Shown here piece by piece: positions 39,309-54,811 of a DNA stretch of 64,000 nt. The stretch comes from an uncultured Gammaproteobacteria bacterium (lineage in GTDB: Bacteria; Patescibacteriota; Microgenomatia; UBA8517). The stretch is taken from contig CAZYCE010000001.1 in the NCBI GenBank assembly GCA_964645605.1, forward strand, positions 64,063 to 128,062. The letters run 5' to 3'. The translations under genes were made by a program, and so were the position numbers. The notes under the pieces were generated by a model that ran no database searches, was not told where the DNA came from, and worked only from the letters and a program-made list of their open reading frames with translations. Numbering within the stretch: position 1 is the stretch's first letter; every line of letters starts with the position of its first letter.

Positions 39309-39675
39309 GGGGACGATCGGTCTCGACGGAATGCTCTTTACAATACTGCAAGCCAAGTTTGATCGACACTTGTCAAAAGAGATCAAAAAATAAAAGCTAG
39401 GAATTCATTCCAAGCCCAACCTAACTACGCAGTAGCGTACGCTTAAGTTGCATCCTTAGATTTGATTCTCGGTTGAATCAAAAGGGTGTAAACCAATCCG
39501 AGATGCTTTTTAAAACTTAATGATTTAGAGTTTTGAAATTAAGCCTAAATAAATCTTACGTTCAGCAGCTGTAAGTTTGCTTAAACTGAACGAAAATTTA
39601 AAAAATTTACTAAGCTTGTAGAGGTTTTGTAGAAAGTTTTTTCGGACGCGGGTTCGATTCCCGCCGTCTCCACAG
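39309..39675 (+). ncRNA. ssrA: Transfer-messenger RNA (tmRNA, ssrA). Predicted tag reading frame ends …AQPNYAVAYA-stop.
   Basis: 5' GGGGACGATCGGTCTCGACGG matches the tmRNA acceptor/D-analog consensus. 3' GGACGCGGGTTCGATTCCCGCCGTCTCCA is the tRNA-like T-arm/acceptor. The internal ORF GCC CAA CCT AAC TAC GCA GTA GCG TAC GCT TAA (39414-39446) resembles ANDENYALAA-type tags. Location just after smpB. Confidence 0.8.
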
Positions 39676-40395: not shown

Positions 40396-40401
40396 ACCGT
40401 G

Positions 40402-40483
40402 CGGTAGGTACAGGGGTCGAACCTGTTAGAGCTTGCGCTCACGAGTTTTCAAGACTCGCGCGTTACCGTCCCGCCCACCTACC
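40402..40483 (-). tRNA. tRNA-Ser (anticodon TGA, reads UCA/UCN), long variable arm.
   Basis: Minus-strand sequence GGTAGGTGG…CGAGT-CTTGAAA-ACTCG…long extra arm…ACAGGTTCGACCCCTGT-ACCTACC-G. Anticodon loop CT-TGA-AA. Confidence 0.8.
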
Positions 40484-40489
40484 ACTGAG

Positions 40490-40575
40490 CGGAGGGGGTG
40501 AGATTTGAACTCACGCGAGCCTTGCGGCTCAGAGGTTTAGCGAACCTCCGCAATGGACCGCTATGCGACCCCTCC
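40490..40575 (-). tRNA. tRNA-Ser (anticodon GCT, reads AGY), long variable arm. Only 6 nt from the preceding tRNA-Ser.
   Basis: Minus-strand GGAGGGGTCGCATAGCGGTCCATTGCG-GAGGT-TCGCTAA-ACCTC-TGAGCCGCAAGGCTCGC-GTGAGTTCAAATCTCAC-CCCCTCC-G. Anticodon GCT. Confidence 0.75.
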
Positions 40576-41562
40576 ATATTTGTATTTATTTAGCCTCTGA
40601 TTACTACTACCAACAATATTGAGATATTTTTCTATCTCATGGCTATTATACAGCCAAACCTTCTTATTCACTACGTTCTTGATAATTTTCGGGTGAAACT
40701 TTAATTCTTTGAGTGTTTCGTAAACAAAGGTCAAAAGAGGAACGGAATAGTTGGTGAAGTTGGCTTTTGGGTATATGTATATTTTCCCATTTACTTTATA
40801 CCTGTGGATGAAGATTCCACCATCAGTATCCATCAAACCACGCAAACAGCGAATTTTATATTTTTGGTTCGATTTTATCCAATCTGGTACGTCCACTTGG
40901 TTTTTAACCTTATTACCCGGGACTAATCCAAGTTTTGTTAGAAGTTTGGTTAAGTTGGCTCCGTTATAATAAATTTCCAATGCATTGGCATTATTTCTTT
41001 TCCTGACTTTGGGCTCGTGTCCAAACAAAGATTTGCATAGTTTTACTACATAGTGCGAATAATCCAAATCCTTAATACTGTTTAATGTTATGCGTATTTG
41101 TAATCTTCCCATGCTCCCATCACCAAGCATAATCCCCATGAACTCAGCAAGGTTCGAAGAGCGTTTCGGTGTGTAAAATGTAGCGATTGGTGATATTGAC
41201 CCTGATTTTCTGAGGATTTCTAGAGTTTTTAATCCTCCTTTTTGTCTACCTTCTTTTGTACCTGGATTTCCATATTTTTGTTTGTAGGCAATCCCACCTC
41301 GTTTTCCAATCCGCGATCTATTCGTTTTCCATCTGTTTTCCAATACCCCAACCTTTTCAGGTAAAATGACATTAAACTTGCTGCCTAATATAAGTACGGC
41401 ATTTTTTGAAATTGACATCTTTTCATTTTTCCAATCAGTAAAACTTCTAGGGGAAACACTTACCAAATTAGCCAATTTATTGGTGCCTAAACCGCTTTTT
41501 TGAATCACTGTTTTGAGGAATATCTTTTGATGGTTGGGCAAGAATTTTAGGTGATTTTCCAT
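40561..41562 (-). CDS. Free-standing LAGLIDADG-family homing endonuclease (two LAGLIDADG-like motifs) with an N-terminal HTH-like region. Its 3' end overlaps tRNA-Ser(GCT) by ~15 nt.
   Basis: FMGIMLGDGSMGRLQIRITL and LRGLMDTDGGIFIH motifs are separated by ~100 aa, as in double-motif LAGLIDADG enzymes. The TAG stop lies inside the tRNA 5' end. Confidence 0.65.
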   Translation of the reverse strand: MENHLKFLPNHQKIFLKTVIQKSGLGTNKLANLVSVSPRSFTDWKNEKMSISKNAVLILGSKFNVILPEKVGVLENRWKTNRSRIGKRGGIAYKQKYGNPGTKEGRQKGGLKTLEILRKSGSISPIATFYTPKRSSNLAEFMGIMLGDGSMGRLQIRITLNSIKDLDYSHYVVKLCKSLFGHEPKVRKRNNANALEIYYNGANLTKLLTKLGLVPGNKVKNQVDVPDWIKSNQKYKIRCLRGLMDTDGGIFIHRYKVNGKIYIYPKANFTNYSVPLLTFVYETLKELKFHPKIIKNVVNKKVWLYNSHEIEKYLNIVGSSNQRLNKYKYGGVA

Positions 41563-41623
41563 ATCCGCTAGACGACACCTCCATGATATACTTTTCCAGA
41601 TATAAAATGTATACTACGCATGT

Positions 41624-42160
41624 ATGGAATCTGCCAATAGCACATTAAATGTTGAGCCACAGGCGGTGGTTGTCAGGCGTGAACCTGAACGCGATTTGGT
41701 TACCTGGACGGCGCCAGCGCGGCCATTTAAAAGGTACGGCAGAAAGTTTTATGTAACTATTTTTTCATTTGTAGGAATAATCAGCATAATTCTTTTTATA
41801 GCCGAAGGTGCCATACCGGTAGTGCTCTTAGTTTCACTTATCTTTTTGTTTTATGTTCTTTCTACGGTTTCACCGGAGAATATTGAGTATAAAATAACCA
41901 ATAAGGGAGTCAAAATCGCAGGCAAGGAAACACCCTGGCAAAATATAATCAGGTTTTGTTTTTTGTCAAAAACAGGAGGCGAAGTTTTGGTTTTTGATGC
42001 GGCAACGTTTCCCGGAAGAATAGAGCTTGTCATAAATCCCGAGGACAAAGATAGATTGAAAAAAGAAATTTCTGCATACACTCCTTATGAAGAAATTAAG
42101 CCTTCTTTTTTGGATAAGATTGTGGACTGGGTTGTTAAAAAGCTGCCGGAGAGTGAGTAG
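41624..42160 (+). CDS. Membrane hypothetical protein (178 aa, two TM helices).
   Basis: Hydrophobic hairpin FYVTIFSFVGIISIILFIAEGAIPVVLLVSLIFLFYVL. Confidence 0.4.
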   Translation: MESANSTLNVEPQAVVVRREPERDLVTWTAPARPFKRYGRKFYVTIFSFVGIISIILFIAEGAIPVVLLVSLIFLFYVLSTVSPENIEYKITNKGVKIAGKETPWQNIIRFCFLSKTGGEVLVFDAATFPGRIELVINPEDKDRLKKEISAYTPYEEIKPSFLDKIVDWVVKKLPESE

Positions 42161-42182
42161 GCACAACTCCGAATAAGCATCT

Positions 42183-42255
42183 GCACCCGTAGCTTAACGG
42201 ATAGAGTAGGAGCTTGCGGAGCTCTTGGTCCCAGTCCGATTCTGGGCGGGTGCAC
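42183..42255 (+). tRNA. tRNA-like gene, best read as tRNA-Arg (anticodon GCG). The T-loop (TCCGATT) is non-canonical.
   Basis: GCACCCG-TA-GCTT-AACGGATA-GAGT-A-GGAGC-TTGCGGA-GCTCT-TGGT-CCCAG-TCCGATT-CTGGG-CGGGTGC-A-CC. Seven-bp acceptor, anticodon loop TT-GCG-GA. Confidence 0.45.
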
Positions 42256-42259
42256 CTAA

Positions 42260-42341
42260 GGAGGATGGGCAGGACGGTAATGCGTTGGTTTCGAAAACCA
42301 ATTCTCGTAAGGGATAGCAGGTTCGACTCCTGCATCCTCCG
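42260..42341 (+). tRNA. tRNA-Ser (anticodon CGA, reads UCG), long variable arm.
   Basis: GGAGGAT…TTGGT-TTCGAAA-ACCAA…GCAGGTTCGACTCCTGC-ATCCTCC-G. Anticodon loop TT-CGA-AA. Confidence 0.75.
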
Positions 42342-42461
42342 CTCGTCGGAACTAAACATTGCTGGTCGTTTTTCAAAACTGAGAGTTTTGAAAAAGATTG
42401 CAAGTTTGTTCCTTCTCTCGGAATTGTTGTACAATTTCGGTTGGAAACATAGATACAAGAG

Positions 42462-42908
42462 ATGGATACAAAAATAAATCAACAAATATTTATAGGAGGC
42501 GCAGTGGTTTTCAAAGATAACCGTGGCAAGCGCCAGTATTTGCTGGTTAAAACGAAAATAGATAGTAACTGGGAAATTCCCAAAGTAACGGTGAGAAGGG
42601 GAGAATCCTCTGTGCGTGCCGTGATTAGACTTACGGGAGAGCAGGGGGGGATTACGGCCAGAATTTTGGAAGAAGCGGGTAGATATTCGGTAACCACGAT
42701 AATAAACGGCAATACCATTCCCCAGAAATATTATTATTACTTGATGCTTCAAAAAGGAGGCCCTGGAGAAATGATCGGATTTCAAGATTACAAATGGATG
42801 GAATTTCCAAATGCCTTGAAAAAGATTGATTCCGAGAAAGAGAAAGAGATGCTCAAAAGTGCAAAAAAGGTATTGAAGGAGTGGGAATCCACACATAGGG
42901 TTAAATAA
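42462..42908 (+). CDS. Nudix hydrolase family protein.
   Basis: Nudix-box-like RGESSVRAVIRLTGEQGGI (GX5EX7REUXEEXGU pattern). Confidence 0.55.
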   Translation: MDTKINQQIFIGGAVVFKDNRGKRQYLLVKTKIDSNWEIPKVTVRRGESSVRAVIRLTGEQGGITARILEEAGRYSVTTIINGNTIPQKYYYYLMLQKGGPGEMIGFQDYKWMEFPNALKKIDSEKEKEMLKSAKKVLKEWESTHRVK

Positions 42909-42913
42909 AGCCA

Positions 42914-43390
42914 ATGTTGCGCGAGTTTTCTTCTGGCGGAGTAGTCTACAAGAAAGAAAAAGGAGAGGTTCTGTGGGTAGTAAGGATGACTGCTGCCAGT
43001 AAACTTTTTCCCAAAACACACTGGATGCTTCCAAAGGGTTGGTTGGATGATGCGGGAGATGGTGTCCCCGGGCCAATGGCCTCGGGCACGTTAAAGGCTG
43101 ACGAAAAAACGCTTCAGGCAACTGCGGTCCGTGAAGTTGTGGAAGAAACGGGAGTTAAGGCTGAAATTATTAAAAAAATTGGGACGCTTAAATATGTTTA
43201 TACCCATCCTGAAAGGGGTAAAACTTTAAAATTTGTCACTTACTTCCTAATGGAGTGGAAATCCGACCTACCAGGAGGTTTTGACGGAGAAACCTCAGAA
43301 ATTGCCTGGCTTCCGTATGGGGAAGCTTATAAAAGACTTTCTTTTGGTAAAGAGAAGGAAGTGCTGAAAAAAGCAAACGCTCTTCTTTGA
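42914..43390 (+). CDS. Nudix hydrolase family protein (second, tandem).
   Basis: Nudix box …EKTLQATAVREVVEETGV…. Confidence 0.6.
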   Translation: MLREFSSGGVVYKKEKGEVLWVVRMTAASKLFPKTHWMLPKGWLDDAGDGVPGPMASGTLKADEKTLQATAVREVVEETGVKAEIIKKIGTLKYVYTHPERGKTLKFVTYFLMEWKSDLPGGFDGETSEIAWLPYGEAYKRLSFGKEKEVLKKANALL

Positions 43391-43407
43391 TATAATACAA
43401 GTTCAAT

Positions 43408-43492
43408 GGAGGAGTCGCCTAGTGGCCTATGGCACGGGTTTGGAAAACCCGGACCCGAAAGGGTCTCGTGAGTTCGAATCTCACCTCCTCCG
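43408..43492 (+). tRNA. tRNA-Ser (anticodon GGA, reads UCC/UCU), long variable arm.
   Basis: GGAGGAGTCGCCTAGTGGCCTATGGCA-CGGGT-TTGGAAA-ACCCG-GACCCGAAAGGGTCTC-GTGAGTTCGAATCTCAC-CTCCTCC-G. Confidence 0.8.
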
Positions 43493-43533
43493 CATTTTGT
43501 AATGATGACAATATATAAATGATATAATCGCCT

Positions 43534-47944: not shown

Positions 47945-49024
47945 ATGATACGAAAACCAGTACTCGATTTAATTAAAAAAGGACGTGATCAGGGGTTTGT
48001 GACCCAGGAAGAGATCATGGACGTCTTTCCTGACGCGGAAGAAAGAGTGGTGGAACTTGATGATCTGTATGAGAAACTTCTTGCGGAAGGAATTGATGTT
48101 TTTGAGTCTGTTACTCCGGGTGAGATTGAATCCGATGAAAAAGCTAAAGAAAAGCTAGACCGTGAAATTGAGCTTCTTACAAAACTTGAGGGGATTGAGT
48201 CGACAGATCCCGTCAGACAATATTTAAGGGAAATCGGCAGGGTCCCTCTTCTTTTGGCAGAGGATGAAGTTGAGCTTGCGAAAAGATATGAAAAAGCCGA
48301 CAAAAGGGCTAAGGACAAACTTACGGAGAGTAACCTCAGGCTTGTTGTATCAATTGCCAAAAAGTACATAGGACGCGGGCTTTCACTATTGGATCTTATC
48401 CAGGAAGGAAACCAGGGACTTATCCGCGCTGTCGAAAAATATGATTGGAGAAAGGGTTTTAAGTTCTCAACTTACGCAACCTGGTGGATAAGACAGGCCA
48501 TTACTCGCGCAATTGCCGACCAGGCCAGAACCATCAGAATTCCTGTCCACATGGTTGAAACAATAAATAAAATTTATAGAACCAGCAGGAGGCTCATGCA
48601 GGAACTTGGCCGTGAGCCTACTCCTGAGGAAATCGGGGAAGAGCTGGAAATGGAGGGAGATCGCATCCGCGAGATATTCAAAATTGCCCAGGAAACGACC
48701 TCATTAGAGGCTCCCGTGGGTGAGGATCAGGAAAGCTTCCTCGGAGATTTTATTCCCGATGAAACAACCCTTTCCCCGGTTGACCAGGCCAGCAAGCAGC
48801 TTTTGAAAGATCATCTTGAAGAAGTTTTAGGCACTCTTTCGGAAAGAGAGGCAAAAGTACTAAAACTGAGATTTGGTCTTGAGGGCAGCAAAGCCATGAC
48901 TCTTGAGGAAGTCGGAAAAGTTTTCGGAGTTACCCGTGAGCGTATCCGTCAGATTGAGGCCAAGGCATTAAGAAAATTGAAGCACCCTTCAAGGAGAAAG
49001 AAATTGCAGGATTATCTCGACTAA
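47945..49024 (+). CDS. rpoD: RNA polymerase sigma-70 factor RpoD.
   Basis: Region 2 (…[41 protein letters not shown]) and region 4 ([15 protein letters not shown]…[27 protein letters not shown]) signatures. Confidence 0.9.
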
Positions 49025-49034
49025 TTCTCAATTT

Positions 49035-49988
49035 CTAATTACTAATTCCTAATTTTTTCTTTAATCCCTCAATCATTACCTCGGTCATTTTTGTTAGATC
49101 AAATGAAGGTTCCCATCCCCAATCACGCCTTGCATCGGAGTCGTCAATTGATTCAGGCCAGGATTCGGCAATGGCCTGTTTGGTGGGGTCAGGATTGTAA
49201 GTACAGACAAAACTTGGATAAAGTTTTTTGATTTCGGCCACCAATTCTTCGGGGGTAAAGTTAATTGCGCCAAAATTATAACTTGTTCTAACACTTATTT
49301 TTTCGGCAGGAGCTTCCATAAGATCAATTGTTCCCTTTACCGCGTCGTCAATGTACATCATGGGAAGCCTGGTGCCTTCTTTTAGAAAACAGCTATATTT
49401 ACCCTCATTTAAAAGGCCGTAAAAAATGTGGACCGAGTATTCGGTCGTTCCGTCGCCCGGTGGTGCTTTGTAGCCGGTTAAACCAGGGTATCTTAGGCTT
49501 CTGGCATCAACTCCCCAGCGTTTCCAGTAGTATTGACATATGAGCTCCCCGGCAACCTTCCCGACTCCGTATATAGTTGTCGGTTCAAGGCTGGTGTGTT
49601 GAGGTGTGTTTTTCCTGGGAGTGGTGGGGCCAAAAGCCGCGATAGAACTCGGGAAAAACACTTTAAATTTGTAAGTTTTTGCCAAATCCAATACATTTTT
49701 TAACCCCCCAAAGTTTACTTTCCAGGCTAGGTCCGGATCCTTTTCACTTCCTACGGACAAGATTCCGGCTAGATGATAGACCTCGGTAACTCCGTTTTCT
49801 TTGATGATGTTTTCGAGCGAAGAAATGTCCGTTACGTCCCCTCTGACCAAGTTTCCGTCAAAATCAGGAGGAATTGTTTTATTGCCCATGGCAAAAATGT
49901 TTTCCTTACCGAATTGTGTCTGAAGTTCAGGTACAAGATCGCTTCCCACAAGTCCGAATGCGCCCGTAACAAGAATTTTCTTTATCAT
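49035..49988 (-). CDS. tdh: NAD-dependent epimerase/dehydratase-fold enzyme, most likely the short-chain (UDP-galactose-4-epimerase-like) L-threonine 3-dehydrogenase.
   Basis: N-terminal [14 protein letters not shown] Rossmann motif. The catalytic Tyr-x3-Lys region is present, read as YGVGK-type spacing. Co-directional and overlapping by 4 nt with the KBL gene. Confidence 0.55.
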
Positions 49989-51157
49989 ATAACGGCCATT
50001 TTTTTGCCAACCTTCTCAAAAATTTGAAGCGCTCCATCCAATTGCCCCTTTGAATGTCCGGCGGAGTTCATAATTCTAATTCTGGCTTTTCCCTGAGGAA
50101 CTGTAGGGTAGACTATTGCTTTGGCAAAAAGACCCTCGTTGAAAAGTTCCCTGCTCATGTCCTGAGCGAGCTTGGCGTCCCCAAGCATCAGGGGAATAAT
50201 GGGAGAGATGGAGGTCCCGGTATCAAATCCGAGCTTTTTTAAACCGGCTCTAAGGTAATCTGCGTTTTCCCAAAGTTTTTTAACCAAATCTCCCGATTTT
50301 TCCAAAAGTTCCACGGCTGCAATACAGGCTGCAACATCGGGAATGGTCATCGCCGAGCTAAACAGGAACGGTCGGCCGCGCTGTGAAAGCCATTCAATTA
50401 TTTCCTTTTTCCCTGCAACAATTCCGCCGACAACTCCGAAGGCTTTGCTCATAGTTCCTACCTCAATATCTACTTTTCCGTGGAGATGAAAATGGTCAAC
50501 TATGCCCCTGCCCGATTCTCCCAAAACTCCCTCTCCGTGGGCATCATCAACCATAAGCATTGCGTCATATTTCGAGGTAATTTCATACAGTTTGTCCAAA
50601 GGTGCAATGTCACCATCCATAGAGAATACGCCGTCGGTTATAACCAGCTTTTTAGCCTCTTTGGGTGCGGCTTTCAGTTTTTCTTCCAAATCGGCAGGGT
50701 TTGCATGGGCAAACCGGATTACCTCCGCTTTACTCAGACGGCAGCCATCAATAATACTGGCATGGTTAAGCTCGTCTGAAAAAATGAGATCTCCCTCACC
50801 GGTGAGAGCGGGGATAACCGCCAGATTTGCGATAAAGCCCGATTGAAATGTGATTACAGCTTCTGCTTTTTTAAACTCGGCAAGTTTTTCCTCAAGTTTT
50901 TTATGGAGTGTTGTGGTTCCTGCTATTGTTCTTACGGCAGCCGGGCCAATCCCGTATTTATCAATCGCGGCTTTTGCAGCCTCCTTCATTTCAGGATTGT
51001 TGGCCAATCCCAAATAGTTATTGGAACAGAAGTTTAGAAGCTTTTTGCCGTTAATTTGAATTTCGGGCCCGATTGCGCTTTCTATTGTCAGGATGTTGTT
51101 GTAGAGATTTTGCTCCTTGAGATCACTAACCTGTTTTTTGATCCAGTCCGTGGCCAT
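49985..51157 (-). CDS. kbl: 2-amino-3-ketobutyrate CoA ligase (glycine C-acetyltransferase), PLP-dependent AONS family.
   Basis: AONS-family fold length (390 aa). PLP-lysine region …[12 protein letters not shown]…. [12 protein letters not shown] motif. Coupled to the tdh-like gene. Confidence 0.65.
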
Positions 51158-51311
51158 GAGAAGAGTATACCACTAAAGTAATTAATAATTAATAATTTAT
51201 AATTTACAACTTATAAGTTTTAAAAGCGCGAAAACTAGGTTATAATAGCTTCAGAGAATAGTAATTATTACTTGTAAATTATTGATTATAAATTCTCTTG
51301 TTCTTTTATAT

Positions 51312-51578
51312 TCCCCTGTAGCTCAATGGTAGAGCGAGATCCTGTCTGGTTTGGCAGCTCTTGACAGTAATGTCGGGATGAAAATCAGGCTAATTCGGGG
51401 AACCCCTCCTTCGTATAAAACTACGGAAGGGTAATCCCGAGCTAAATCACAAAAGTGTAAATGTGTAGAGACTATATACCTGACACCCTTTGGGGTGATA
51501 AGATAGTCCGATCCTTTTGGTAACAGAAGGGCTATTGTAAGATCGAGGTTGGAGGTTCGAGTCCTCCCGGGGGAGCCA
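51312..51578 (+). tRNA. tRNA-Asn (anticodon GTT) interrupted in the anticodon loop by a ~192-nt group I intron. Exons are 51312-51345 and 51538-51575(+CCA to 51578).
   Basis: 5' exon TCCCCTG-TA-GCTC-AATGGTA-GAGC-G-AGATC-CTGT. 3' exon TAA-GATCG-AGGTT-GGAGG-TTCGAGT-CCTCC-CGGGGGA-G-CCA. Reconstituted loop CTGTTAA matches the E. coli tRNA-Asn loop. G73 discriminator and acceptor resemble bacterial tRNA-Asn. Confidence 0.7.
51346..51537 (+). ncRNA. Group I self-splicing intron (catalytic core R/S elements present) inserted between anticodon positions 35 and 36 of tRNA-Asn.
   Basis: GTGTAGAGACTATA (R-like, cf. UCAGAGACUA) and AAGATAGTCCG (S-like, cf. AAGAUAUAGUCC) form P7 (GACTA/TAGTC). The intron ends with G (omega-G) right before exon TAA. 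The 5' exon ends in T (U•G in P1). Confidence 0.7.
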
Positions 51579-51948
51579 AGATTGACGAGAGGCGTAAAAA
51601 GCTATCTTGTCAAAGGGATTTGTCCAGTCGTATCGGGCTTTTTTGCCATTTAGTTCTAAGTTCTGAAGTGTCATCTTCAAAAGTAGCCGTTTTTCGTGAA
51701 CTTCAGAACTTTCAAACAGTTTGCCTGCGTTAAAAGCCAGTTTTAGCGGGTATCCTGTTGGAATTCTTATTAATTCCAACAGGAAAGTTGGGTATTCCTG
51801 CCAATAAGTGCCATGGTGCATTAAGTTAAAATCCAAAGGATTTTGGATTTGCCATTTTGGCCTATCCAACAATTCTTTGGGTTCTTTTATTGGAAAAATG
51901 CCTTAAATGGATGTTTAAGCCGAAATTTTGTAGAATGGCGGAAACAAT

Positions 51949-54322: not shown

Positions 54323-54811
54323 TTATTTTGTCTTTTTTGAAGATGCCTTCTTGATTACCTTCTTTGCTTTCTCAGGTTTAATTTCCTTTGTCTCGCCGGA
54401 GTCTTTAACGGAGGCAGGCTCAATCTTTTCCTCGACAACTGTCGGGGTAGGAGTTGGGGCTAAAATATTAAGAATTCTATCAAGTTTGGTATCCATTGCA
54501 TCAAACCGAGCTTTATTTTGATCAAAAGAGGGAACCTGGGGCTTAGATTCAGATCTTCGGGAGTCTCTTCCGCCGTTCATTTTTTCAAAACACTCACTGC
54601 AATAAACCGGTTTTCCATTTGAAGGCTTAAAAGGTACCTGACAATCTTTTCCGCAGTTGCTGCAGACGGCGCTGAACATCTCGCGGTGTCCGGCGTCTCT
54701 GTCAAAACCTCCACCAAAACCACCACGTCCGCCTCGGTTGCCGCCGAAATCGCGCCTACCGAAGTCTCTACCTCCACCGCCACCTCTCCTGTCTCTTCCA
54801 AAATTTCCCAT
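54323..54811 (-). CDS. RGG/Gly-Arg-rich protein with a C4 zinc-ribbon (CxxC-x16-CxxC) and a lysine-rich C-terminal tail. Putative nucleic-acid-binding protein.
   Basis: N-terminal MGNFGRDRRGGGGGRDFGRRDFGGNRGGRGGFGGGFDRD. CSNCGKDC…CSECF. C-terminal KPEKAKKVIKKASSKKTK. Confidence 0.45.
   Translation of the reverse strand: MGNFGRDRRGGGGGRDFGRRDFGGNRGGRGGFGGGFDRDAGHREMFSAVCSNCGKDCQVPFKPSNGKPVYCSECFEKMNGGRDSRRSESKPQVPSFDQNKARFDAMDTKLDRILNILAPTPTPTVVEEKIEPASVKDSGETKEIKPEKAKKVIKKASSKKTK

What the first reader, a model, noticed from the sequence alone, without database searches (positions are those of the whole stretch)
51312..51578. tRNA-Asn(GUU) interrupted by a group I intron in the anticodon loop
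The sequence begins and ends as a canonical tRNA (7-bp acceptor, GCTC/GAGC D-stem, GGAGG-TTCGAGT-CCTCC T-arm, G73, encoded CCA). It contains 192 nt between anticodon-loop positions 35 and 36. Joining the flanks gives the loop CTGTTAA, which is the tRNA-Asn loop. The insert has group I hallmarks. It follows an exon U and ends with G before the 3' exon. It has R-like GTGTAGAGACTATA and S-like AAGATAGTCC elements that can form P7. From memory, bacterial tRNA group I introns are best known in tRNA-Leu(UAA), tRNA-fMet, tRNA-Ile and tRNA-Arg. An intron in tRNA-Asn, and at position 35/36 rather than 34/35, would be unusual. The intron has no ORF, so it is not mobile via a homing endonuclease.
Basis: seen in the sequence. 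Interest (0 to 1): 0.8.

Follow-up and report, generated by a model that had tools for sequence, protein, structure and literature searches.

The report
Self-splicing intron inside tRNA-Asn gene
The asparagine tRNA gene of this small-genome (Patescibacteria) bacterium is split in its anticodon by a 192-base self-splicing RNA intron; the reading is correct, but this kind of intron at this position was published in 2020-2026 and is common in this group, so it is ordinary.

Summary
Window 51312-51578 (+) is a tRNA-Asn(GUU) gene split between anticodon positions 35 and 36 by a 192-nt group I intron (51346-51537) with no ORF. Rfam Intron_gpI scores 66.3 bits against a gathering score of 50. In-silico splicing gives a clean 75-nt tRNA-Asn. 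Uninterrupted tRNA-Asn genes 74/75 identical to it exist in metagenomes. A P1-P9.0 structure is supported by covariation in 84 relatives (94.9% of cells paired, 33-48% for slid controls). P1 has an invariant U35.G wobble, and a covarying P9.0 sits directly before the terminal G, so both splice sites are fixed. ARAGORN's rival call, tRNA-Thr(UGU) with the intron at 33/34, is a known two-base artefact.

The class is not new. Williams (bioRxiv 2020, "Asn.4Ug") and Nakagawa et al. [quoted passage not shown] The window's intron is collinear with one spliced intron (tRNA-Asp, CP011214). A truncated GTDB scan found this compact lineage in 73 other tRNA-Asn genes, 11 tRNA-Asp and 6 tRNA-Met, mostly in Microgenomatia. 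The neighbouring RpoD is about 97% identical to Woesebacteria MAGs. Verdict: a real, functional-looking new member of a known kind; low interest.

The parts
51312..51578 (+). Complete interrupted tRNA-Asn(GUU) gene: exon 1, intron and exon 2, including the encoded CCA
   Evidence: The spliced product is a 75-nt tRNA-Asn(gtt) by ARAGORN. Default ARAGORN misses the gene.
51312..51345 (+). 5' exon, tRNA positions 1-35, ending C32 U33 G34 U35
   Evidence: Intron-less alleles L135 and L123 match across the junction.
51346..51537 (+). Group I intron, 192 nt, no ORF
   Evidence: Rfam RF00028, 66.3 bits. Covariation in alignment A1. Collinear with the in vitro-spliced tRNA-Asp intron L026.
51538..51578 (+). 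3' exon, tRNA positions 36-76: U36 A37 A38 ... G73 (51575), CCA (51576-51578)
51342..51357 (+). P1. Exon CUGU (51342-51345) plus intron C1 (51346) pair with the internal guide sequence GGCAG (51353-51357). The U35.G wobble is 51345 with 51354. Loop L1 is 51347-51352.
   Evidence: CUGU/GCAG is invariant in 83/83 distinct rows, including U.G. The +1:IGS pair covaries (CG 44, AU 7, GC 4, UG 3, UA 2). GCAG is present in 85/85 introns.
51360..51377 (+). P2 hairpin (51360-51366 with 51371-51377) with a GNRA loop, GUAA, at 51367-51370
   Evidence: All 7 pairs show compensatory changes. Recovered by the single-sequence fold.
51385..51389 (+). P3 5' strand (UCAGG), pairs with 51479-51483
   Evidence: 3 of 5 pairs covary, 99.5% of cells paired.
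51395..51440 (+). P4 (51395-51400 with 51435-51440) enclosing P5 (51404-51407 with 51428-51431) and P5a (51410-51415 with 51422-51427)
   Evidence: P4 is invariant and 99.2% paired. P5 has 3 of 4 pairs covarying. P5a is seen in the window fold; its length varies among relatives.
51441..51464 (+). P6 (51441-51442 with 51463-51464) and P6a (51448-51450 with 51455-51457)
   Evidence: P6a: 3 of 3 pairs covary, 98.4% paired. The outer G.U and C-G pairs are invariant.
51468..51475 (+). P7 5' strand (G, bulged A at 51469, then GACUAU). This is the guanosine-binding helix and pairs with 51503-51509.
   Evidence: 99.7% paired and invariant. The invariance is partly forced by the search pattern. Recovered in the centroid fold.
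51479..51483 (+). P3 3' strand (CCUGA)
51484..51497 (+). P8 hairpin (51484-51488 with 51493-51497)
   Evidence: 5 of 5 pairs covary. Recovered by the fold.
51503..51509 (+). P7 3' strand (AUAGUCC)
51510..51536 (+). P9.0 (51510-51512 with 51534-51536) enclosing P9 (51513-51519 with 51524-51530), whose GNRA loop GUAA is at 51520-51523
   Evidence: P9.0: 2 of 3 pairs covary (AU 40, GC 25, CG 12 at the middle pair). P9: 7 of 7 pairs covary.
51537..51537 (+). Terminal guanosine (omega-G), the last intron base, directly after P9.0
   Evidence: Sequence. The position is fixed by the covarying P9.0. In the homologous introns an omega-G to C change blocks exon ligation (PMC13011429).
51219..51246 (+). 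Sigma-70-like promoter match (TTTAAA-16-TATAAT), about 66 nt upstream of the tRNA. A possible promoter; consensus match only.
   Evidence: 10 of 12 hexamer positions match; 3 sites found in the region against 1.8 expected. Weak evidence.

Best explanation
This is a functional tRNA-Asn(GUU) gene of a Microgenomatia (Woesebacteria-like) Patescibacterium, interrupted between anticodon nucleotides U35 and U36 by a compact, ORF-less, self-splicing group I intron. The proposed mechanism has five steps. (1) The pre-tRNA is transcribed with the intron. (2) The intron folds into the P3-P8 and P4-P6 core. Its internal guide sequence GGCAG pairs with exon C32-U35 plus intron C1 to form P1, which puts U35 in a U.G wobble. 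(3) A free guanosine bound in the P7 pocket attacks the bond after U35. (4) P9.0 places the terminal G (51537) in the same pocket, and the freed 3'-OH of U35 attacks the bond after that G. In this copy a 4-bp P10 (UAAG with UUUG) may also help. (5) The exons are ligated into the loop CUGUUAA, giving mature tRNA-Asn, and the intron is released. What is shown here: the sequence, the family membership, the structure with covariation, both junctions, and the existence of intron-less alleles. What is inferred: catalysis by this particular copy. That rests on a collinear homologue (the tRNA-Asp intron of CP011214/GCA_001029755.1) and on a tRNA-Asn intron at the same site (GCA_016700035.1), both shown to self-splice precisely in vitro.
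For: Rfam Intron_gpI scores 66.3 bits against a gathering score of 50. The in-silico spliced product is tRNA-Asn(gtt), and 51345/51538 is the junction in the scanned range that gives U-1, a terminal G and a 75-nt tRNA with a 3-nt anticodon. 21 metagenome contigs carry uninterrupted tRNA-Asn genes containing the exact predicted 27-nt junction; the best are 74/75 and 73/75 identical over the whole tRNA. In 84 aligned relatives, 94.9% of cells pair against 33-48% for slid partners, 31 of 54 pairs show compensatory changes, and 0 of 500 shuffles reach the observed score. P1's U.G wobble is invariant and the adjacent pair covaries. P9.0 covaries directly before the terminal G. The thermodynamic fold of the window intron alone recovers P2, P4, P5, P8 and P9 (z -2.68). 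The intron is collinear with the experimentally spliced L026 intron (PMC13011429). U1-A72 and G73 fit the known tRNA-Asn identity set; this is established knowledge, not tested here.
Against: There is no direct evidence that this copy splices: no RNA data and no assay. The sequences used for covariation were chosen with a U-1/terminal-G filter and an exact core pattern, so the invariance of P4, P6 and P7 is partly by construction. P10 is not conserved in the lineage. The anticodon stem has an A27.G43 mismatch, although intron-less alleles share it. The window cannot show whether this is the only tRNA-Asn gene in the genome.
Confidence: 0.93

Rival explanations
1. The gene is tRNA-Thr(UGU) with the same 192-nt insert placed two bases upstream, between positions 33 and 34 (intron 51344-51535). 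This is what ARAGORN's intron mode calls.
For: ARAGORN -i reports tRNA-Thr(tgt) i(33,192). The shifted junction also follows a U (U33), and the product is also a 75-nt cloverleaf. In the window, exon AUCCU could pair with intron GGGAU (51375-51379) with a U33.G wobble.
Against: The shifted intron would end in U, not G. The conserved P1 puts the U.G wobble at U35 in 83/83 distinct rows, and P9.0 abuts G51537. The GGGAU segment is the 3' strand of P2, which covaries with its own partner. Intron-less alleles read CTGTTAA. U1-A72 and G73 are tRNA-Asn features, not tRNA-Thr features (established knowledge). Nakagawa et al. document this exact two-base ARAGORN/tFind miscall and sequenced the ligated exons of a tRNA-Asn intron at the same site to show 35/36. 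My own alt-P1 count was too permissive to discriminate between the junctions.
Confidence: 0.02
2. The intron is a decayed relic that no longer splices, so the locus is a tRNA pseudogene and another gene supplies tRNA-Asn.
For: There is no expression or splicing data for this copy. Only 64 kb of the genome is visible. There is no homing endonuclease to maintain the intron.
Against: Every core helix is intact in the window copy, and every column that is invariant in the 84-sequence alignment carries that same residue in the window, which is row 1 of that alignment. The exons are 74/75 identical to intron-less functional-looking genes. The closest relatives keep the same architecture, 9-14% divergent on well-aligned intron columns, with compensatory changes, which indicates purifying selection on structure. 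The paper reports that an intron-containing copy and an intron-less copy for the same anticodon rarely coexist in one genome.
Confidence: 0.04
3. The region holds two unrelated elements: a truncated tRNA fragment beside an independent structured RNA.
For: Default tRNA finders see no tRNA here. The Rfam hit coordinates do not coincide with the tRNA borders.
Against: The two flanks together reconstitute a complete tRNA-Asn that exists uninterrupted elsewhere. P1 pairs exon with intron. The same exon-intron-exon arrangement recurs in at least 73 other genomes at the orthologous locus next to rpoD.
Confidence: 0.01

Closest known systems
tRNA-Asp(GUC) 35/36 group I intron of Candidatus Woesebacteria GW2011_GWF1_31_35 (CP011214 / GCA_001029755.1; locus L026), self-splicing in vitro in Nakagawa et al. 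2026 (PMC13011429)
   Same: Same insertion site (after U35 of a CUGU loop) and the same IGS, GGCAG. The core sequence is the same: GGCTAATTCGGGGAA, GGTAATCCCGAGCTAAATC, TAAATGTGTAGAGACTATATACCT, GATAAGATAGTCC and a terminal ATTG. The architecture is the same compact one: P1, P2 with a GNRA loop, P3-P9 with a GNRA loop on P9, and no hairpin between P7 and P3'. Length is similar (196 against 192 nt), and neither has an ORF.
   Different: The host tRNA differs (Asp, not Asn), so the 3' exon begins CAC rather than UAA. P5 is shorter, and P6 and P8 are longer. About 25% of well-aligned intron columns differ.
Patescibacteria tRNA-Asn(GUU) 35/36 introns listed by Nakagawa et al. 2026 (for example GCA_016700035.1, spliced in vitro); 'Asn.4Ug' of Williams 2020
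   Same: Same host tRNA, same insertion site, same U-1 and terminal G, same phylum, and the same ARAGORN/tFind miscall as tRNA-Thr(UGU) 33/34.
   Different: The Asn introns whose full sequence is visible in Table S3 are 205-262 nt, excluding the truncated homing-endonuclease-bearing ones. Most show extra sequence between the P7 5' strand and P3', which looks P7.1/P7.2-like, and most have the core GGTTCAGAGACTAG and GCAGCCAAGCC instead of GTGTAGAGACTATA and GAGCTAAATC. In the stored supplement the window's core signature occurs only in Microgenomatia tRNA-Asp rows.
Classical bacterial tRNA group I introns, subgroup IC3: tRNA-Leu(UAA) of cyanobacteria and plastids, tRNA-fMet, tRNA-Ile(CAU) of Azoarcus, tRNA-Arg(CCU)
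   Same: These are also small, mostly ORF-less self-splicing introns in the anticodon loop, with GNRA loops on P2 and P9. They share the J6/7-P7 motif GTGTAGAGACTA (IC3 rows in Table S5).
   Different: Their insertion sites are 33/34, 34/35 and 36/37, not 35/36. Their P4'-P6 junction reads CCGAGCCAAGC rather than CCGAGCTAAAT. The paper classes none of the Patescibacteria tRNA introns as IC.
Phage T4 td intron (subgroup IA2); resemblance recalled from memory, not tested
   Same: As I recall the td sequence, its P4-J4/5 and P4'-P6 core (CGGGGAAC ... AAUCCCGUGCUAAAU) resembles the window's UCGGGGAAC ... AAUCCCGAGCUAAAU. That would fit the paper's IA assignment.
   Different: td sits in a protein-coding gene, carries an endonuclease ORF and has P7.1/P7.2. 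The window intron has none of these features.

Membership tests
Group I catalytic intron (Rfam RF00028) | Covariance-model score at or above the curated gathering score | tested here: met
   66.3 bits against 50, E 1.3e-14.
Group I catalytic intron (Rfam RF00028) | P1 helix between the 5' exon and an internal guide sequence, with U-1 in a U.G wobble at the 5' splice site | tested here: met
   CUGU|C pairs with GGCAG. The U.G wobble is present in 83/83 distinct rows and the neighbouring pair covaries.
Group I catalytic intron (Rfam RF00028) | [quoted passage not shown] | tested here: met
   G at 51537, positioned by the covarying P9.0.
Group I catalytic intron (Rfam RF00028) | Conserved core: the P4-P6 and P3-P8 domains, with P7 forming a pseudoknot with P3 | tested here: met
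   All helices are present. 94.9% of cells pair and 31 of 54 pairs show compensatory changes.
Group I catalytic intron (Rfam RF00028) | Guanosine-dependent self-splicing | not testable with these tools
   Shown in vitro for the collinear homologue L026 and for a tRNA-Asn intron at the same site (PMC13011429). Not shown for this copy.
Patescibacteria tRNA-Asn/Asp 35/36 introns (Williams 2020 'Asn.4Ug'; Nakagawa et al. 2026) | The host gene is tRNA-Asn(GUU) or tRNA-Asp(GUC) | tested here: met
   The spliced product is tRNA-Asn(gtt). Intron-less tRNA-Asn genes are 74/75 identical to it.
Patescibacteria tRNA-Asn/Asp 35/36 introns (Williams 2020 'Asn.4Ug'; Nakagawa et al. 2026) | Insertion between anticodon positions 35 and 36 | tested here: met
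Patescibacteria tRNA-Asn/Asp 35/36 introns (Williams 2020 'Asn.4Ug'; Nakagawa et al. 2026) | The host organism belongs to Patescibacteria | tested here: met
   The neighbouring RpoD is about 97% identical to Woesebacteria MAGs (L051, L106), and Kbl is 85-87% identical. The closest introns are in Woesebacteria GW2011_GWA1_44_23 and UBA8517. The source contig itself is an unnamed Logan assembly.
Patescibacteria tRNA-Asn/Asp 35/36 introns (Williams 2020 'Asn.4Ug'; Nakagawa et al. 2026) | Structural subgroup IA, as assigned in the paper with subgroup covariance models | not tested
   No subgroup models are available here. The window intron has no hairpin between P7 and P3' (no P7.1/P7.2), but its P4-P6 sequence is not IC3-like. 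The Table S5 rows for the Microgenomatia introns are cut off in the stored supplement.
Classical IC3 bacterial tRNA introns (Leu-UAA, fMet, Ile-CAU, Arg-CCU) | Insertion at 33/34, 34/35 or 36/37 in those host tRNAs | tested here: not met
   The host is tRNA-Asn and the site is 35/36.

The most novel reading that the evidence does not exclude
This compact lineage, which has no P7.1/P7.2 hairpin and no endonuclease, may be a distinct Microgenomatia-centred sub-lineage that colonised three tRNA genes. It could reach tRNA-Asn and tRNA-Asp because one guide sequence, GCAG, recognises the CUGU shared by all GUN-anticodon loops. It could reach tRNA-Met by retargeting the guide to GGCC. It is present or absent at the orthologous tRNA-Asn locus next to rpoD. 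That pattern could mean RNA-level mobility (reverse splicing) or repeated precise loss, without a homing endonuclease. The published survey of 95 complete genomes shows this lineage only in tRNA-Asp (and possibly tRNA-Met), so its dominance in tRNA-Asn of Microgenomatia would be a small addition.
Probability: 0.25. Interest if true: 0.35.

Novelty: new member of a known kind. Interest (0 to 1): 0.2.

Why it matters
The practical point is annotation. Default tRNA finders miss this gene, and ARAGORN's intron mode mislabels it as tRNA-Thr(UGU). The genome would then seem to lack tRNA-Asn, which lowers completeness estimates for Patescibacteria MAGs. Nakagawa et al. 2026 already make this point. 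Biologically, the locus adds one more example of ribozyme introns persisting in essential genes of extremely reduced genomes. The comparative data gathered here add three modest observations to the published picture: at least 73 further tRNA-Asn hosts of one compact lineage, strong covariation for both splice-site helices, and intron-plus and intron-minus alleles at one syntenic locus. None of this opens a new question.

Tried and rejected
1. ARAGORN intron mode across the 118 related loci gave inconsistent isotypes and junctions, because it often took P9's GGTAAC as the anticodon-stem partner. I replaced it with a junction mapper anchored on the T loop.
2. A brute-force junction search timed out.
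3. Requiring 5 of 5 anticodon-stem pairs excluded the window itself, which has an A27.G43 mismatch. I relaxed the rule to at least 4 of 5. 28 loci still stayed unresolved, because of contig ends or variant tRNAs.
4. I tested whether the rival U33 junction has its own P1. The 5-mer search was too permissive (5/5 matches in 35 of 74 Asn introns and 10 of 11 Asp introns), so the test is uninformative and I did not use it.
5. P10 is not conserved in the lineage: 55 of 74 Asn introns have 0 or 1 pair. I do not claim it as a general feature.
6. Recent hopping between tRNA-Asn and tRNA-Asp within one genome is not supported. Same-genome copies are not nearest neighbours.
7. A literature search for 'tRNA-Asn' with 'group I intron' returned only organelle papers. 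The relevant papers came up with broader terms.
8. The antisense ORF at 51447-51872 has no Pfam match and was not among the genes called on the Logan contig, so I treat it as spurious.
9. A permissive Rfam scan found no second group I intron in the window.
10. The paper's subgroup assignment for the Microgenomatia introns could not be read, because the stored Table S5 is truncated.

Full report
OBSERVATION. The region 51312-51578 (+) reads as the first-stage reader described. The acceptor stem is TCCCCTG/CGGGGGA, with one G.U pair. The D stem is GCTC/GAGC and the T arm is GGAGG-TTCGAGT-CCTCC. G73 lies at 51575 and an encoded CCA at 51576-51578. There are 192 nt (51346-51537) between T35 and T36. 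Default ARAGORN does not report a tRNA here. Rfam finds one Intron_gpI match in the window, at 66.3 bits against a gathering score of 50 (E 1.3e-14). A permissive scan adds no second copy. The printed Rfam range, 51232-51530, is not the true extent of the intron. Its P1-P2 part is misaligned into AT-rich upstream DNA, and the model ends before the terminal G.

JUNCTION. I spliced the sequence in silico at every combination of exon ends near the anticodon loop. Joining 51345 to 51538 gives a 75-nt cloverleaf that ARAGORN calls tRNA-Asn(gtt). This junction combines a U before the intron, a G as the last intron base and a 3-nt anticodon in a 75-nt product. ARAGORN's own intron mode instead calls tRNA-Thr(tgt), with the same 192-nt insert shifted two bases upstream. 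Four lines of evidence decide for Asn at 35/36.

(i) The shifted intron would end in U rather than G.

(ii) In 84 aligned relatives, P1 pairs exon CUGU with intron GCAG, and U35 sits in a U.G wobble in 83 of 83 distinct rows. The next pair, intron +1 with the guide sequence, covaries (CG 44, AU 7, GC 4, UG 3, UA 2). A 3-bp P9.0 directly before the terminal G also covaries (AU 40, GC 25, CG 12 at its middle pair).

(iii) A metagenome scan for the predicted 27-nt ligated junction found 21 contigs with uninterrupted tRNA-Asn genes. The best are 74/75 (L135) and 73/75 (L123) identical to the predicted mature tRNA.

(iv) U1-A72 and G73 belong to the established tRNA-Asn identity set. This is background knowledge, not something tested here.

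STRUCTURE. In intron numbering, where position 1 is window 51346, the helices are as follows.
- P1: exon positions -4 to -1 plus intron position 1, paired with positions 8-12.
- P2: 15-21 with 26-32, loop GUAA.
- P3: 40-44 with 134-138.
- P4: 50-55 with 90-95.
- P5 and P5a: 59-62 with 83-86, and 65-70 with 77-82.
- P6 and P6a: 96-97 with 118-119, and 103-105 with 110-112.
- P7: 123 and 125-130 with 158-164, with A124 bulged.
- P8: 139-143 with 148-152.
- P9.0: 165-167 with 189-191.
- P9: 168-174 with 179-185, loop GUAA.
- Terminal G: 192.

On alignment A1 (84 introns), 94.9% of cells form standard pairs, against 33-48% when the 3' partners are slid by 1-3 columns. 31 of 54 pairs show changes on both sides. 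The covariation score is 0.447 against at most 0.114 for the slid versions, and 0 of 500 shuffles reach the observed score. P2, P5, P6a, P8, P9 and P9.0 covary, as do three of the five P3 pairs. P4 and P7 are invariant, which is partly a consequence of the exact-match pattern used to collect the sequences. I state that caveat, along with the U-1/terminal-G filter used in my junction mapper. Folding the window intron on its own recovers P2, P4, P5/P5a, P8 and P9, and P7 appears in the centroid structure (z -2.68). There is no hairpin between P7 and P3' (no P7.1/P7.2), no P2.1 and no P5abc. The window has a possible 4-bp P10 (exon UAAG with intron UUUG), but P10 is not conserved in the lineage.

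RELATIVES AND HOST. By record title they are almost all Patescibacteria MAGs, chiefly Microgenomatia: Woese-, Gottesman-, Davies-, Levy-, Roizman-, Ames- and Curtissbacteria. My junction mapper assigned 73 of them to tRNA-Asn(GUU) 35/36, 11 to tRNA-Asp(GUC) 35/36 and 6 to tRNA-Met(CAU) 33/34. 28 stayed unresolved. Asn introns are 178-288 nt long, with a median of 193. The window's nearest relatives are in Woesebacteria UBA8517 (L091) and GW2011_GWA1_44_23 (L051). Their introns are 82-83% identical overall to the window's and 9-14% divergent on well-aligned columns, and their mature tRNAs are 96-97% identical. The neighbouring RpoD is about 97% identical to that of L051, L087, L099 and L106, and Kbl is 85-87% identical. 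The window therefore comes from a Woesebacteria-like organism. Its own contig is known only from a Logan assembly of SRR13007709. RpoD lies next to tRNA-Asn both in intron-containing loci and in intron-less ones (L122, L126, L128, L134, L136, L138), so the same orthologous locus exists with and without the intron. Asn- and Asp-hosted introns mostly cluster by host: the nearest neighbour has the same host for 71 of 73 Asn introns and 8 of 11 Asp introns. Copies in the same genome are not each other's closest relatives, so there is no sign of recent movement between the two tRNAs.

WHAT IS KNOWN. Williams (bioRxiv 10.1101/2020.01.27.920355) expanded bacterial tRNA group I intron settings from the four classical ones to 21. 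The later paper cites its category 'Asn.4Ug' and notes the Thr.2Ug confusion. Nakagawa, Amikura, Omae and Suzuki (mSystems 2026, PMC13011429; preprint 2025) found 15 tRNA-Asn and 3 tRNA-Asp genes with group I introns at 35/36 in 95 complete Patescibacteria genomes. They documented the two-base ARAGORN/tFind miscall as Thr(UGU) 33/34. They showed precise self-splicing in vitro for one tRNA-Asn intron (GCA_016700035.1) and one tRNA-Asp intron (GCA_001029755.1), and showed that changing the terminal G to C blocks exon ligation. They reported that 19 of the 28 introns at 35/36 in 4,934 complete genomes are from Patescibacteria, that most tRNA introns lack endonuclease genes, and that Patescibacteria tRNA introns fall in subgroup IA. 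Locus L026 of my scan is exactly that spliced tRNA-Asp intron (CP011214, around 698.7 kb). The window intron is collinear with it and shares the guide sequence and all core junctions. The paper's listed tRNA-Asn introns are a longer form. In the stored supplement, the window's core signature occurs only in the Microgenomatia tRNA-Asp rows. The window therefore shows that compact lineage in tRNA-Asn. My scan shows this is in fact its commonest host.

MECHANISM. This is standard group I splicing. P1 presents U35 in a U.G wobble. An exogenous guanosine bound in P7 cleaves after U35. P9.0 then delivers the terminal G to the same site, and the exons are ligated into the loop CUGUUAA. The structure and both junctions are shown here. 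Catalysis by this copy is inferred from the experimentally validated homologues.

RIVALS. The tRNA-Thr(UGU) 33/34 reading is rejected on the evidence above (confidence 0.02). A dead intron in a pseudogene is unlikely, because the core is intact, structure is under purifying selection and the exons are near-identical to intron-less genes; it is not excluded without RNA data (0.04). Two unrelated adjacent elements is refuted (0.01).

VERDICT. The observation and interpretation are correct, and it was a good catch from raw sequence. The class is published, experimentally validated and abundant in this phylum. I classify it as a new member of a known kind, with interest 0.2.

Noticed in passing
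window 39309-39673 (+): tmRNA gene (Rfam 143.6 bits). ARAGORN predicts the tag peptide ARNSFQAQPNYAVAYA, which ends in YA rather than the common LAA or VAA type.
   Followed up: no
window 40401-43493: A cluster of five tRNA genes within about 3 kb: four tRNA-Ser isoacceptors (UGA, GCU, CGA, GGA) and tRNA-Arg(GCG).
   Followed up: no
L003, L004, L005, L007, L018, L021 and many other loci titled 'uncultured Gammaproteobacteria' or 'Pseudomonadales': Many GTDB record titles say Gammaproteobacteria, but the contigs carry the Patescibacteria-type tRNA-Asn or tRNA-Asp intron. Where testable they also carry an RpoD close to the window's: L099 is 97% identical and L047 is 94% identical (Woesebacteria L051 is also about 97% identical to the window). 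One such record is a 615-kb 'chromosome' (L062). The organism names in these record titles look wrong.
   Followed up: partly
L045, L071, L082, L100, L109, L112: The same compact intron core also sits in tRNA-Met(CAU) at 33/34. There the intron start reads ...ATGGGCC, which would pair with exon GGCU. This suggests a guide sequence retargeted from GCAG to GGCC.
   Followed up: partly
L081+L087 (DAITMO01), L005+L024 (CAYSAY01), L003+L047 (CAZTGB01); probably also L067+L091 (UBA8517) and L080+L106 (DeMMO6_57): Single genomes carry the compact intron in both tRNA-Asp and tRNA-Asn. The two copies are 25-29% divergent and are not each other's nearest relatives. In the last two pairs, L067 and L080 were not resolved by the strict mapper and look Asp-like only from ARAGORN and their GGGGTC acceptor ends.
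   Followed up: partly
window 47945-51578; L122, L126, L128, L134, L136, L138 and others: rpoD lies next to tRNA-Asn across Microgenomatia-like contigs, both with and without the intron. In the window and its closest relatives, kbl and a tdh-like gene are inserted between the two.
   Followed up: partly
window 51338 and 51545 (tRNA positions 27 and 43): There is an A27.G43 mismatch at the top of the anticodon stem. The closest intron-containing relatives and all 21 intron-less alleles share it, although the search pattern forces this for the latter.
   Followed up: no
window 54323-54811 (-): A 162-aa ORF with an N-terminal RGG/Gly-rich region and a CxxC...CxxC motif; function not examined.
   Followed up: no
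window 51447-51872 (-): A 141-aa antisense ORF overlaps the intron and the 3' exon. It has no Pfam match and was not among the genes called on the Logan contig, so it is probably spurious.
   Followed up: yes
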